Source of the DNA: a virus
Virus genome (UHGV): UHGV-0099614
Reading direction: 5' to 3' (one strand)
DNA: 28,758 nucleotides
Shown here: one piece after another, positions 15,001-21,000 of the stretch
Numbering within the stretch: the stretch's first letter is position 1
Layout: each line of letters begins with the position of its first letter
Made by a program: the position numbers

Positions 15001-18000
15001 AGACATACCCCATACTGGATGCCTCCTGATGTTGTACAGGGTTATGCCTGTAATCAGCTAACTTAACGACGCCCATGCTTCACTCCTGCTTTGGCTAGTC
15101 TGTAAACACCAACAAGGCGCTCTGCGAACGCCCTGTTATTTGCTGCGGCTACCACTAATCCCTCAGGTGAATCAGGGTGTCGAATCTCTTCTTTTTCCTG
15201 GTATTTCTTACGACGTTTTGTCATAATTACTCCTGTGGATTGATCCAGTCTTTCTACATCAGGCCTCGAAGAATTCGCCGTTCTTCGGGGCTTTTTCTTT
15301 TGTCAGCATTCTGGCTACTTTCTTAGCCAGTTCCGCCAACTCCTCGTCTTCAACACCCCATTCAAGAACAGCCAGAAGCATTCCCATTTTTGGGATGAAG
15401 CTGTCTTTCCATCGCGAAATTTGCGATTCATTAATCCCTAACGCGTCGGCAACCTTTCGCTGGCCACGTACAGCAATTCGATTCAGGATGTTGCTTGTAA
15501 TTGCATTCGCTTTCTTGCGAGTACTTGTAAGTTGCATATGTAAGTATTTCCTTAACAAATAAGAAGTTATGCGCATCAACTTATGCGCGTTGTATTCCCG
15601 CATTTCGGCGGGAATGATGACCATGACTGTTAAAGAGCGGTGTTACTATTTGTTTTTCTTGTTGCTTGGGAAAGGACGAACTTCCTCTCCAATCACACTG
15701 CCATCAGGCTTTACCGTAACCATGATGTTACGGCCTGCCAGAATGGCCTTGCTGATAGCGCACTGGATTACACCAAAGTCACTGGCTGCTTTAGCCTGTC
15801 CATGGATTTTGGCGTAATCGGCAAGTGTCATTCGAATCATATGCACTCTCCGTTATTAACCATGAACAAAGAATACTACAGGTATTCAAAGCAATCAATA
15901 CTCAGGGTATTTTTAGTTTAAGTACCTTAGCTATTAGAATTAAGCTATGGAAAATAAAAAATCACTGACGACAGAACAGCTCGAAGACGCTAAGCGGCTT
16001 AAGGCTTTGTATGAGTCAAAAAAGAAAGAATTGGGAATAACCCAATACTCAATCGCTGATGAACTGGGTATCACCCAAGGAGCGGTAGGGCATTATCTTA
16101 ATGGCAGAAACGCGCTAAACGTTGAGGTTGCATCTGGTTTTGCACGATTGTTGCAAGTCTCAATTGCTGATTTTAGCCAGTCAATTGCTGCCAAGGTTGC
16201 AGAACAGGCAGAAAGCCTTAAGAGCGATGCCAACGTAAGGTATGCAGGGGAATACAGAGCAGGAAAGAGGTATCCGGTGTTAAGCAGTATCCAGGCTGGC
16301 TCGTGGTGTGAAGCATGCGAACCATACACCATTAAAGACATAGATGTTTGGCTTGAGTCTGACGCGCATATTCAAGGTAATGCGTTCTGGCTTAAAGTGG
16401 AAGGTGATTCAATGACGGCACCGGTTGGGTTAAGCATTCCAGAGGGAACATTCGTTCTTTTCGATACCGGAAGGGAGGCGATCAACGGCAGCTTGGTCAT
16501 AGCAAAACTTTCTGACTCTAACGAAGCAACATTCAAGAAGCTGATAATCGACGGCGGAAATAAATACCTCAAGGGACTTAACCCTGCATGGCCTCTCGTG
16601 CCAATCAATGGAAACTGCAAGATTATAGGCGTTGCAATTGAGACAAAACTAAGGCTGGTTTGATCACGCAAGGGGCGCTTATGGTTGGAACCGCTATAGC
16701 AAGCTTTTTTGGGATGTTGGCAATCTCGACAATTTACGGCTTAGCGCATGCTTTTATTGCGAAATCTCTATCAGAAAAAATAAGCCAGGCTTGGGCGCAT
16801 AGATCAGCTCGTTTCATGATTCTGGTGATCATGGCAATACAAGGGATATCTGCATTTATCCTCTATGGATCAAGCTTATACCTATTGTATCAAGGCGCGA
16901 CATTTACGCCTTACACCAGTGATTACGGAACTCTATACGATGGTAGTGAAGACATCTCTATGGCTTGGATTGTCTTTGGTTTATCTATGGCCGTGTCTGT
17001 TGTAGCAGACATCATTAAGGTAATTCTCGTCTTAACCTTCGCTGACTAACCCATAATCCCGGCAGCAATAGCTATCGGGATCCACTTCACATATCCCGCA
17101 TAAAAAGCACTGAACAAGCAGACACCGAAAAAATAAATATCCTTTGTATTCATTTGCTTATCATTATTTTACCAAAAATAAATACCTTGGGTATTTACAC
17201 AATAAAATACCTACAGTATTCTTTAGCCATCAGCAGGACGCTGGTAGCCAAACGGAACAGATTGGCAGGCTCTTTAACATTGATGGGATTGTCCCGCCGA
17301 AATGCGGGAACCAAAGAGTAGTTGGCTTTGGGGTGTGGTGAAGCCAGCTAGTCACTGGCAAGTGCTTACCTACTGTTGAGCGGTGAAGAGCTCCCAACGC
17401 TAGCAATAGCGTGGACGAGATGGGGAGCTGCGGGCGATAAGGCCGCCATAACGCGCACGTTGTCGCATGGAAAAATCGCTGGGGTGCCGGTTATACCCCT
17501 CCGAATGAGACTCAACAAGCTGGAGCTAGACTACCAGCCACCACACCACCAAAGCTAATCATCTGAGGAACAGAAAATGTTAGACATCATGACCAACCCA
17601 ATTCTCGGTGGTTTAGTTACCACATTCGCCATCTGCTTCGGTTTCACTAACCGCAGAGAAAGCGAAAGATAACTTCATGCCTAACTTCATGTTTTCCACT
17701 CGCGACGTGCTGGCGATGCTGGATGAGCTGGAGAAGATGCAGGCGCAATCGTCCAAATGGTGCGAAGCCTTCCATAAAGCCGTTTCCGTTGGCGCTCGGT
17801 ATGAGGAGCGGATTGCTGAACTGGAAGCACGGGAAATATCGCTCCCAGAACGTAGCAGTATGCTTCATCGAACAGATTTTCACGATGATTACCAAACGGT
17901 AATGGCATACAAAGTTTCTGAAGTCATCGCTGCAATCCGCGCTGCTGGTATTCGCATCAAAGGAGAGTGATATGAGCACTGGATGATAAACAAGGCATTA

Positions 18001-21000
18001 CGCTTAATGGGCTATAACACGCAAGAGGACGTAACTGGACATGGATTCCGTGCCACAGCCTGTAGTTCCCTGATGGAGTCCGGTTTGTGGCAGGAGGACG
18101 CAGTAGAGCGCCAGATGAGCCACAAAGAATATAAAGACGTTAAAAGAGCCTACAAGCACAAGGCTGATTACTTAGAAGAGCGCAAACTAATGCTTCAATG
18201 GTGGGCAGATTATCTGGACGCCAATCGAGAAATACACATAAGCCCTTACGAGTTCGGAAGGAGAACACGCCGTGACTAAGATGACAGGACTAGATGCGTT
18301 TTATAACGAGTCAGAAGATAAAATCTGGTTTGGTAATCTGATCAGCGAACTGGCAAGACTAAACAATGAAAATGAAAGAATGATAGCTGCCGCTATCTTA
18401 AGTAACTACAGATTGAGCAAGACTAAACCAGATACTTTAGGGGGGCTGGGCTTTTATCAGTTCGATTGGGTATCTGGTTTTACGACAAATGAAGACTTTG
18501 AAAAGCAGTGTGTGGAGTTTTTAGGTCTTCTGGCTATGGGGCATGAATACAGGGAGAGCCCGATACCGGGGGAAGAAGGGACTTTCAACGTTAGGAAAGG
18601 AGAAGACTTTTTATATCACGATGATGAGGATGATTGGTATGGGTCTTACGATTCGTTTTATTTCAAGCGATCCGAGGTTGTGAACTTCTTTCCAGAACTG
18701 GATATGAATGTTCCAGATAACGAACCAGAAATTGGAGCACTGTCAAAAAAAGTAGAAAGAGAACAAAACTGGAGAGGAAAAGATACGGCTTTAAAGATGA
18801 TCGCCGGAATGGCGATTGCCTTATTTGAATCAAGCAAAGATTTCCATAGTGGAGGAAACCTTAGTATCAATAGGGTTAGTGCCCAAGTAATAGAAAACAA
18901 CATAATATTCGGGAACGATGAAGACAGCGATACCCACCCAGATACATTTCGGAGATTGCTAACGAACGCTTTGGATAAGTACGCCCCCAAATTTAAGAAC
19001 AAAGCAACCAAAAAGTGTCCAAAATAAAGGAAGGATGTTCCCAAATTGTGCGTTAGAACTAAAAAATAACGCCCAATTTGGGGTAATTCTATTCCCAAAA
19101 ATTTTTTCTCCAAATTCACAGAAAACTTAAAAAAACAATGATTTACTATCTCACATAGTCAAGCAACGTATTACGAGGTAGATATGAAAAAGTCGCTGAT
19201 TCGGCTATCTGAGGTTTTGAAACGCACTGGCTATAGCAAGGCGTGGGTATATGCTCTGATGAGCCGAGGACAATTCCCCCAATCAGTCAAGATTGGTGCT
19301 CGCGCAATAGCTTTTATTGAAAGCGAGATCGATGACTGGATCGATCAACGTATAGCCGAATCGCGTAGCAACTAAAGAACAGAAACAAACAGGATACAAA
19401 CAATACGTTATTAGGTATTAAGAATGCAGTTGAAACCTACCAATCAAAAGCTGAACGTAACCCATGTTGATTTTGAAACCTTCGCGGCACTGATTAGATC
19501 AGAGCCACAAAAGGTGAGCACCAGCACCAGGGTTTATGATGTGAAATCCACCAGCGGTGGAAAAGCTATCGGCATTGCCTCTGGCGATGATTACTTAGTA
19601 ATAGATCTGATTTAATCGCACAAAAATTGTAGAGTAATTTGGGGAGACAGGAAGTCTCCTCCGTATTGCATTTTGGTACAACAGTAAGGGAATAAAATGA
19701 TTAATTACCTGACCGCTAAAGACGCAGCAGAATATCTTGGCGTCTGTCTGTCACGCTTCTATCAGTTAAAGCGATATATCCGAAGCTTTCCTCCCTATAT
19801 AAATCAGACCATCAATGGTCGCAAGCGCCGGGTGTGGCTTGCCTCCTGCCTTGATCAATTTGCCGACAGATTTCTGGGGGGACGAAAATGAGCACTCTTA
19901 CACGCTCTCAGGTCGCCGCGAATATACGCGATATCCTACTAAGTGGCAGGAAGCTTACCCCAAAAGAGTTTGACGACATATTAAGGAAAGCCGGAAATCA
20001 CGAACGTAGTCGCGTTTTAACGCTGTTACGCAACGATTGGGGAATTCCTGTTGAGCAGTTTAAAACAGGGGCGTATCACGTCACAGAACGCAATTTAGAA
20101 GCATACCACAGCGATAAAGACGAAACATTGAAGATCTGGAGGACGAACGCCAGATATGTAAAGACATTGCGTAAGGTAAACATAACGTTGTCGTTGTTGC
20201 GTGGGCTGGTGGGTAAAGTGCCTGAAGACACGCTTAGAACTGTTTACAAGGGTATTGAAACCAAATACCTGTGATTGACAAAGCAGAAAGCCGACTTTGC
20301 GAGAGTCGGCTTTGAAGCAATTGAAATATATGAACTTTACACATGGAATTATACGATAAAGACGCGAGTCTATCCACAAAATCACAAGCCGTAATCAATC
20401 ACATCAATGGTCGCACATTAGCTTATGTGAAATCAGTTACGCACAAACGTAATGAATTAAAGGCAGAGAATAAACGCCAATCATCAAAGGCTAACCACTG
20501 CATACCACCAGCCTGGACAAAGAAGAAATGGCGTACAATGAGGCGAGCTTTGTTTACTCTGGATGTCGAATCAACTAGTGGTATCCCCTACTCCTTTACC
20601 TTCAGACCCGTTAAGGGAACAACGCCAGAGAAATTCAACAAAGCGTTAAAGGCACTTACCAGATGGTTGACTTCGAAAGGCAATCAGTGGGTTTACGTCA
20701 TGGAGTGGGCTCAACACCAGTCAGAGCCGCATGTACACGCAATAATCATGGTGAACGAAAGAAGCATTAATGGGCAAGCTGGCAAAATTGTCAGCAAATG
20801 GGTAACACTGGCAAACAATGCAATCCCATCAAATGTTCCTCCTCAGTGGGATCTAGATTTGAAAGGTCAGCAATATTCAGAGCCTACCAAGCATATAGGT
20901 AAACAAATTGATTACATGGCAAAGCCCGAAACTAAGTTAAATGACTTTAATAGAGAGGCGAGCAAGAGCCTATATGATTGGTCAGATGCCAGCGTTTGGG

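What the first reader, a model, noticed from the sequence alone, without database searches (positions are those of the whole stretch)
17968..18279. Orphan integrase C-terminal fragment marks a fusion junction between two elements
A P4-type integrase 3' end of about 98 codons (GHGFRAT...QWWADYLD) begins right after an in-frame stop at 17968, with no N-terminal domain anywhere upstream. To its left is the lambdoid early region; to its right a satellite-like module (AlpA, HUH Rep, cargo). This suggests two elements integrated in tandem at argW and were then joined by a deletion that removed the internal att site and the 5' part of the second integrase.
Basis: inference. Interest (0 to 1): 0.45.

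Follow-up and report, generated by a model that had tools for sequence, protein, structure and literature searches.

The report
Integrase stub at a prophage–island fusion
The 98-codon integrase piece is a dead remnant left when a deletion fused a decayed P22-like prophage to a small anti-phage defence island that had integrated next to it at the argW tRNA gene of E. coli; this is an ordinary, well-documented kind of mobile-element decay.

Summary

- **What the fragment is.** Window 17987-18279 encodes residues 332-428 of an intact 428-aa P4/CP4-type integrase (WP_000089393.1), with 96 of 97 residues identical. No other part of that gene exists in any frame of the window.
- **Right of the junction.** From 17987 the window is 99.9% identical over 10.8 kb to a roughly 10.7-kb argW element: int, an int-overlapping ORF, AlpA, an HUH Rep, the GAPS6 defence system and a serine recombinase.
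- **The element elsewhere.** It sits alone at argW in other E. coli. In 36 of 5426 complete genomes it lies in tandem behind a P22/KplE1-like prophage, separated from it by torI and an internal att copy.
- **What the window has lost.** The window lacks torI, the internal att and the first 331 codons of int. Its two remaining att copies have a prophage-type arm on the left and an element-type arm on the right.
- **The junction.** It lies at 17981-17986, where the six bases GGATGA match neither parent. Four independent public assemblies span it. Two further contigs carry a second deletion on top of it.
- **No frameshift.** There is no programmed frameshift and no hidden N-terminus.
- **Verdict.** This is a recent deletion scar that most likely immobilises both elements. 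Interest is low. The element family itself (PICMI-like layout, variable defence cargo) is the more interesting by-product.

The parts
3913..3987 (+). argW, tRNA-Arg(CCT), the shared integration target
   Evidence: ARAGORN.
3965..3988 (+). attL core. This 24-nt stretch, TTCGATTCCTGCAGGGGACACCAT, is repeated at 27516-27539. It is followed by the prophage-type arm (tttatcagttcgcc...).
4149..5306 (+). IntS-type prophage integrase. It is intact (385 aa) with all three domains and is 31% identical to the element's integrase.
   Evidence: The RefSeq name intS is given to the 96%-identical copy in strain H3.
15947..16663 (+). cI-type repressor of the prophage remnant (LexA/S24 family)
   Evidence: Gene calls and Pfam families on the identical contig L005. 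RefSeq names in H3 and ET450 at 98-99% identity.
17136..17222 (+). Putative OL/pL region. It holds three operator-like palindromes and a promoter-like site pointing towards the junction.
   Evidence: The assignment as pL is an inference.
17650..17980 (+). Short surviving piece of the prophage early-left arm. It contains the ea22-like C-terminal ORF 17677-17970 and the first 3 codons (from 17972) of the next phage gene. An older junction at 17649/17650 bounds it on the left.
17981..17986 (.). Fusion junction. The six bases GGATGA are collinear with neither parent. GG could be integrase sequence followed by a 4-nt ATGA insertion.
17987..18279 (+). 3' remnant of the element's integrase gene (residues 332-428 of 428). 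It keeps HxxR, the second His and the Tyr. It lacks the arm-binding domain, the central domain and box I with the first catalytic Arg.
18272..19027 (+). ORF of 251 aa with no known family. It overlaps the integrase stop by 8 nt.
19184..19375 (+). AlpA-family regulator or excisionase of the element
   Evidence: Pfam PF05930 at 65.6 bits. PHROG excisionase/regulator family.
20343..21395 (+). Rolling-circle (HUH-type) Rep of the element
   Evidence: Pfam PF23343 at 29.7 bits against a 27.8 cut-off. RefSeq name 'rolling circle replication-associated protein'.
22149..25775 (-). GAPS6 anti-phage system, the cargo. GapS6b is at 22149-25433 and GapS6a at 25446-25775.
   Evidence: NCBIfam NF047936 at 1063.7 bits (cut-off 850) and NF047935 at 116.5 bits (cut-off 90). 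Defence activity of GAPS6 is reported in bioRxiv 10.1101/2023.03.28.534373.
26755..27381 (+). Serine recombinase (invertase/resolvase-like) at the right end of the element
27516..27539 (+). attR core. It is preceded by the element-type arm and followed by the chromosomal dsdC-side flank.

Best explanation
The fragment is a non-functional 3' remnant of the integrase gene of a small (about 10.7 kb) argW-specific integrative element.

That element was integrated in tandem behind a P22/KplE1-like prophage. Both elements use the 3' end of argW as their att core. An illegitimate deletion of a few kilobases then removed four things:
- the distal end of the prophage early-left arm, including the recombination directionality factor TorI;
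- the prophage right att arm together with the internal att core;
- the element's left att arm and integrase promoter;
- codons 1-331 of the element's integrase.

The deletion shows no clean microhomology and left six unassigned bases at the joint.

The result is one 23.5-kb composite island with a prophage-type attL and an element-type attR.

**Shown:** the identity and extent of the fragment, the absence of the rest of the gene, torI and the internal att, the hybrid ends, and the existence of the solo and tandem precursor states.

**Inferred:** the order of the events, and that the composite can no longer excise. The element has lost its integrase and one att site. The prophage has lost TorI and its right arm sites.
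For: **The fragment and its gene**
- The fragment equals residues 332-428 of the intact Int, 96/97 identical.
- Window 17987-28758 is 99.898% identical to E2 over 10,772 bp without interruption.
- The intact Int has Arm-DNA-bind_3, Phage_int_M and Phage_integrase domains. The fragment keeps only the last 56 profile positions of the catalytic domain.
- Box I (…FVRSSELR…, aligned with IntS …ALRTKELR…) lies at about residue 246, inside the deleted part.
- There is no other copy of the N-terminal part, no TorI homologue, and only two att cores in the window.

**Precursor states in other genomes**
- Solo element at argW.
- Solo prophage ending in torI-att-dsdC.
- Tandem arrays with an internal att, present in 36 of 5426 genomes.
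- About 222 genomes hold at least 80% of the integrase-region query.
- The att arm sequences show that the window's ends are hybrid.

**The junction**
- It was mapped at base level.
- Four independent public assemblies span it (L005-L008). In two more (L009, L010) a second deletion sits on top of it.
Against: - No complete E. coli genome in the collection carries this exact junction.
- No genome carries a direct pre-deletion ancestor with the same left-arm mosaic. The size of the deletion is therefore only bracketed, at about 2.9 kb against 5CRE51 and about 4.9 kb against E2.
- Six bases at the joint are unexplained.
- Loss of mobility is inferred, not tested.
Confidence: 0.9

Rival explanations
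1. The right-hand module did not first integrate site-specifically beside the prophage. Instead it was joined to it directly by illegitimate or transduction-associated recombination, with its integrase already truncated.
For: The junction has no clean microhomology and carries six unassigned bases. No direct ancestor with the same left arm was found.
Against: The right end of the module is the canonical element-type attR at the argW-derived core next to dsdC, base for base as in solo and tandem copies. Tandem precursors with an internal att exist in 36 genomes. A single deletion therefore explains everything.
Confidence: 0.05
2. The 98-aa ORF is a functional product. Possible roles are a truncated recombinase that modulates IntS or the element, an upstream ORF kept for translational coupling to the overlapping 251-aa gene, or part of a full integrase made by a programmed frameshift.
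For: An ATG at 17983 was created at the joint. The ORF is intact and overlaps the next gene by 8 nt. The exact 98-aa product recurs in six public contigs.
Against: No N-terminal integrase sequence exists in any frame. The fragment lacks the DNA-binding domains and the first catalytic Arg. Its near-identity to intact alleles and the 99.9% DNA identity of the flank show a recent event, so persistence of the ORF is not evidence of selection. The recurring contigs are 99.97-100% identical copies across the junction, or deletion derivatives of the same junction.
Confidence: 0.03
3. The junction is an assembly chimera.
For: The junction is absent from 5426 complete genomes, from JGI metagenome contigs and from GTDB species representatives.
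Against: Contigs from independent runs (SRR29826034, SRR18111278, SRR14099312, SRR8898650) span it at 99.97-100% identity. Two others (SRR27200793, ERZ1304070) retain it beside a further deletion. There is no repeat at the joint that could mislead an assembler.
Confidence: 0.01

Closest known systems
Tandem accretion of integrative elements at one tRNA att site followed by deletion. Composite genomic islands of this kind are described for streptococcal ICEs/IMEs/CIMEs and for Klebsiella asn-tDNA islands, e.g. PMC5357655 and PMC4891358 (listed; not read in full).
   Same: Two unrelated elements share one att core. Tandem arrays with an internal att exist. A deletion across the internal boundary fuses the elements into a composite with hybrid ends.
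   Different: Here the partners are a P22-like prophage remnant and a small defence-carrying element, not ICE/IME pairs. The deletion removed an att site and an integrase, so the product is not a cis-mobilisable element with both att sites.
KplE1 (CPS-53) prophage of E. coli K-12 at argW, with IntS and TorI
   Same: The integration site is the same, with the same 16-17-nt core (CTGCAGGGGACACCAT). IntS lies next to argW and torI lies at the far end next to dsdC in intact relatives. The layout with int and the directionality factor at opposite prophage ends is from my own knowledge of the KplE1 literature.
   Different: The window has lost torI and the right arm. It carries a different set of surviving genes: gtrABC, tailspike, ejection proteins and the immunity region.
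P4/CP4-57-type tyrosine integrases (Arm-DNA-bind_3 + central domain + catalytic domain)
   Same: The intact orthologue has exactly this architecture. It integrates at a tRNA 3' end and lies next to its att site.
   Different: The window copy is only the last 97 residues and cannot be a working member.
PICMIs, phage-inducible chromosomal minimalist islands of Vibrionaceae (PMC10803314)
   Same: This comparison concerns the right-hand element. It shares the minimal layout of integrase, a gene overlapping the integrase 3' end, AlpA, one replication gene and anti-phage cargo.
   Different: The replication gene is an HUH rolling-circle Rep rather than a primase. Integration is at argW rather than next to fis. 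The host is E. coli. No helper phage or packaging is known. No copy was found in the phage-record collection searched with megablast.

Membership tests
P4/CP4-type tyrosine integrase (functional member) | N-terminal arm-type DNA-binding domain (Pfam PF13356) | tested here: not met
   The domain is absent from the window copy. It is present at residues 9-96 of the intact orthologue. A tblastn finds no other copy in the window.
P4/CP4-type tyrosine integrase (functional member) | Central core-binding domain (PF22022) | tested here: not met
   The domain lies at residues 106-196 of the intact orthologue and is deleted in the window.
P4/CP4-type tyrosine integrase (functional member) | Complete catalytic domain with both Arg residues, His and the Tyr nucleophile | tested here: not met
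   Only profile positions 115-170 of 172 remain, scoring 25.5 bits against a 27.1 cut-off. The HGFR motif and the C-terminal Tyr region are kept. Box I with the first Arg (about residue 246) is deleted. Residue roles come from general knowledge of tyrosine recombinases.
P4/CP4-type tyrosine integrase (by descent) | Orthology to an intact member | tested here: met
   96/97 identical to residues 332-428 of WP_000089393.1. The DNA is collinear with that gene and its downstream genes.
Composite island formed by tandem accretion plus deletion | Each partner occurs alone at the same att site | tested here: met
Composite island formed by tandem accretion plus deletion | Tandem arrays with an internal att copy occur in relatives | tested here: met
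   Present in 36 of 5426 genomes.
Composite island formed by tandem accretion plus deletion | The composite has hybrid att arms and no internal att | tested here: met
PICMI-type minimal phage satellite (right-hand element) | Core genes: integrase, AlpA and primase | tested here: not met
   An integrase (in relatives) and AlpA are present. The replication gene is an HUH Rep, not a primase.
PICMI-type minimal phage satellite (right-hand element) | Integration next to fis | tested here: not met
   The element integrates at argW.
PICMI-type minimal phage satellite (right-hand element) | Helper-phage-dependent induction and packaging | not testable with these tools
   The only result available is that no copy exists in 50,697 phage records.
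GAPS6 anti-phage system (cargo) | Both GapS6a and GapS6b present above curated cut-offs | tested here: met

The most novel reading that the evidence does not exclude
The deletion did more than kill an integrase; it also rewired the element. The prophage's cI-repressed pL region has three operator-like palindromes and a promoter-like site at 17136-17222. After the fusion it lies about 760 bp upstream of the integrase stub. No terminator-like site occurs before 18798. The element's int-overlapping gene, and possibly AlpA and Rep, could therefore now be switched on by prophage derepression or the SOS response. Alternatively, IntS could recombine the hybrid attL and attR, which share the 16-nt core, and move the GAPS6 module as prophage cargo.
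Probability: 0.1. Interest if true: 0.4.

Novelty: new member of a known kind. Interest (0 to 1): 0.2.

Why it matters
The case is a clean, base-resolved example of how defence islands become fixed in a chromosome. Two mobile elements compete for one tRNA site, stack in tandem, and one deletion then removes the parts that made both of them mobile. The O-antigen-modifying gtr genes and the GAPS6 defence system are kept.

It also matters for annotation:
- The 98-aa ORF should be flagged as a pseudogene remnant.
- The 23.5-kb argW-dsdC insert should be read as two elements, not one.

It adds no new mechanism.

Tried and rejected
- **Hidden or frameshifted N-terminus.** A tblastn of residues 1-331 of the intact integrase against all frames found only the IntS paralogue.
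The two proteins are only 31% identical, so this is uninformative. The intact orthologue from E2 was used instead.
- **Search for the exact junction elsewhere.** It is absent from 5426 complete E. coli genomes, from JGI metagenome contigs and from GTDB species representatives. It was found only through the exact-protein look-up in Logan and ENA contigs.
- **Search for the element in phage records**, as evidence that it is a packaged satellite. There was no match.
- **Solved structures to map catalytic residues.** Only the N-terminal domains of CP4-like integrases have been solved, so residue roles rest on the alignment with IntS and on general knowledge.
- **Literature searches** for an argW tandem satellite or for a named family for this element found nothing specific.
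- **Clean microhomology at the joint.** There are only patchy similarities (CAAAGG, GTGAT, GAG, CAC) in the 25 bp to the left of it, which is not convincing.
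Full report
**What is in the sequence**

The window runs from the chromosomal genes upstream of argW to dsdC of an Escherichia coli chromosome. tRNA-Arg(CCT) lies at 3913-3987. The reported ORF is real: 17983-18279, + strand, 98 aa. The open frame begins just after a TGA at 17968-17970 and reads ...MINKALRLMGYNTQEDVTGHGFRAT...QWWADYLDANREIHISPYEFGRRTRRD*. That TGA is the stop codon of the preceding ea22-like ORF (17677-17970), which happens to be in the same frame.

The fragment matches Pfam Phage_integrase only over the last third of the profile (positions 115-170 of 172). 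It scores 25.5 bits, just below the 27.1 gathering score. It also matches PHROG integrase families.

**Identity of the fragment**

A megablast of the surroundings against 5426 complete E. coli genomes shows a sharp homology boundary. Hundreds of genomes match the window from base 17987 rightwards, and none match across it.

In strain E2 the window's 17987-28758 aligns without a gap at 99.898% identity over 10,772 bp. In that genome the matching gene is an intact 1287-bp integrase (WP_000089393.1, 428 aa). The window's fragment is 96/97 identical to residues 332-428 of that protein.

The intact protein has the P4/CP4-type architecture: Arm-DNA-bind_3 at residues 9-96, Phage_int_M at 106-196 and Phage_integrase at 233-392. 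Its N-terminal domains match solved CP4-like integrase domains.

The window copy therefore lacks both DNA-binding domains and about 100 residues of the catalytic domain. The missing part includes box I with the first conserved arginine (…FVRSSELR…, aligned with IntS …ALRTKELR…). It keeps HGFR, the following His and the C-terminal Tyr region. Residue roles are from general knowledge of tyrosine recombinases.

A tblastn of residues 1-331 against all six frames of the window finds only the paralogue IntS at 4143-5069 (29.6% identity). This excludes a frameshifted or split full-length gene.

**The two elements**

*Right of the junction.* The genes are:
- a 251-aa ORF with no known family that overlaps the integrase stop by 8 nt (18272-19027);
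- AlpA (19184-19375);
- two small ORFs, one of them a weak helix-turn-helix match (19697-19891), and a 128-aa ORF;
- a 350-aa rolling-circle Rep (20343-21395);
- the two-gene GAPS6 anti-phage system on the minus strand (22149-25775), with both proteins above the NCBIfam cut-offs;
- a serine recombinase (26755-27381);
- a 24-nt copy of the argW 3' end at 27516-27539, just before dsdC.

GAPS6 was shown to protect against coliphages in bioRxiv 10.1101/2023.03.28.534373. In strain 2017.17.01CC this element, with its intact integrase next to the tRNA, is the only insert between argW and dsdC. It is therefore an independent element of about 10.7 kb. About 222 of 5426 genomes hold at least 80% of the integrase-region query. 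Strain 5CRE51 has the same backbone with different cargo.

*Left of the junction.* This is a heavily decayed P22-like prophage. It comprises:
- IntS (4149-5306, intact);
- gtr-type glucosyltransferase genes;
- tailspike, ejection, needle and gp10 genes on the minus strand;
- fragments of lysis and replication genes;
- cro, cII and the cI repressor;
- a pL/nutL-like region.

Intact or less decayed relatives at the same site (ET450, H3) continue from cI through an 8-kb early-left arm. That arm ends with ea22, DUF551 genes, torI, the att core and dsdC.

**The precursor state exists**

In E2 and 5CRE51 the two elements lie in tandem: prophage ... torI, an internal att, then int and the element, a second att, then dsdC.

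The arm sequences are diagnostic:
- The prophage right arm (...caagtagatgt) precedes the core CTGCAGGGGACACCAT.
- The element left arm (cccgccgtacac...) follows the core.
- The element right arm (...TTCGATTC) precedes the distal core.
- The chromosomal flank (ccttgtgtttatccc...) follows the distal core.

The internal hybrid att is present in 36 of 5426 complete genomes. Tandem arrays are therefore a common state for this element.

The window has only two cores. attL carries the prophage-type arm and attR carries the element-type arm. There is no internal att and no TorI homologue. This is exactly what a deletion across the internal boundary of a tandem array would leave.

**The junction at base level**

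The left parent is the 3' end of an ea22-like gene plus the first three codons (ATG AGC ACT) of the next phage gene. It is matched up to 17980. The integrase is matched from 17987. The six bases in between (GGATGA) are collinear with neither parent. They can be read as the integrase's GG followed by a 4-nt ATGA insertion.

Only patchy similarity exists between the parents just left of the joint. The event therefore looks like illegitimate recombination with a small filler, not homologous or site-specific recombination.

The joint fortuitously creates a 4-codon stub (ATG AGC ACT GGA TGA) and the ATG at 17983 that heads the 98-aa ORF.

Relative to tandem references, the missing stretch is about 2.9 kb (5CRE51) to 4.9 kb (E2).

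**Is it real, and how old is it?**

No complete genome, JGI metagenome contig or GTDB representative has the junction. However, the exact 98-aa product is called on six public contigs.
- Four of them, from four different sequencing runs, span the junction at 99.97-100% identity.
- Two others, from a fifth run and an ENA assembly, keep the junction but join window 11107 directly to 17934. This is a further 6.8-kb loss of prophage genes in the same lineage.

The junction is therefore genuine and is inherited within a lineage that keeps shedding prophage DNA. The 99.9% identity of the flank to intact elements shows that the event is recent.

**Consequences (inferred)**

The element has lost its integrase, its integrase promoter and its left att. 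The prophage has lost TorI and its right arm. IntS is intact, but it would have to act on a foreign right arm without its directionality factor. The 23.5-kb composite is therefore most likely locked in place, keeping the gtr genes and GAPS6.

One untested side effect is possible. The prophage pL region has three operator-like palindromes at 17136-17220 that mirror those at 15868-15912, and a promoter-like site at 17194-17222. It now points at the integrase stub and the element's first genes, with no terminator-like site before 18798.

**Comparison with what is known, and verdict**

Stacking of integrative elements at one tRNA att site, followed by deletions that fuse them, is a well-described route of island evolution (papers listed). 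argW is the known KplE1/IntS/TorI site. The fragment is a pseudogene by descent from a P4/CP4-type integrase and fails every functional membership test.

The right-hand element resembles the minimalist PICMI satellites in layout: int, an int-overlapping gene, AlpA, one replication gene and defence cargo. It differs in its replication protein, integration site and host. No phage record contains it. 'Satellite' therefore remains a hypothesis.

The finding is an ordinary deletion scar of low interest, with a modestly interesting element family beside it.

Noticed in passing
window 17649/17650: There is a second, older junction in the prophage early-left arm. Homology to the ET450 and H3 prophages stops here, just downstream of the pL/nutL-like region and before the N-type gene. 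The 97-aa ea22-like ORF (17677-17970) matches only the C-terminal part of Ea22-like PHROG families. The 337 bp between the two junctions are therefore an isolated scrap.
   Followed up: partly
L009 1-1377 and L010 1-1254 (window 11107 joined to 17934): Two public contigs (Logan SRR27200793, ENA ERZ1304070) keep the ea22'/int' junction but carry an extra 6.8-kb deletion. It removes the prophage from the tail-needle gene to the ea22 remnant. This shows stepwise erosion within the same lineage.
   Followed up: partly
window 17987-27539; L011 7842-18560; L013 6071 onwards: The argW element forms a family with a conserved backbone (int, 251-aa int-overlapping ORF, AlpA, small ORFs, HUH Rep) and a swappable cargo slot. 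The cargo is GAPS6 here and in E2, and other genes in 5CRE51. About 222 of 5426 genomes carry it. I found no named description of it. Its layout recalls PICMI satellites.
   Followed up: partly
window 3965-3988 and 27516-27539; L001 10828-10844: Two integrases that are only 31% identical use the same argW core but duplicate different lengths of it. The prophage duplicates 16-17 nt (tCTGCAGGGGACACCAt) and the element duplicates 24 nt (TTCGATTCCTGCAGGGGACACCAT).
   Followed up: partly
window 17136-17222, 17292-17305, 15600-15613 and 15868-15912: Operator-like palindromes (AATAYC..GGTATT) occur three times left of the junction and are mirrored in the cro-cI intergenic region. A boxB-like hairpin (CCCGCCGAAATGCGGG) is mirrored at 15600-15613. 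The immunity region therefore looks intact although the N-type gene is gone.
   Followed up: no
window 20343-21395: The C-terminal 215 residues of the Rep match phrog_30534 (unknown function) at E=9e-149. Yet no phage record in the INPHARED collection contains the element's DNA. The PHROG family may derive from a prophage prediction that swallowed a copy of this element.
   Followed up: no
rows H1, H17, H18, H20, H21: In several genomes the same element is interrupted by insertion sequences (IS2, IS3, IS66). In ET625 an IS66 element lies beside an 'integrase arm-type DNA-binding domain' fragment. The element's integrase is therefore also inactivated by other routes.
   Followed up: no
window 13828-15260: The prophage remnant jumps from gp10 to short pieces of lysis-region, helicase and replication genes and then to cII/cro. 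Several internal deletions have removed the head, terminase, nin and most replication genes (one search compared).
   Followed up: partly
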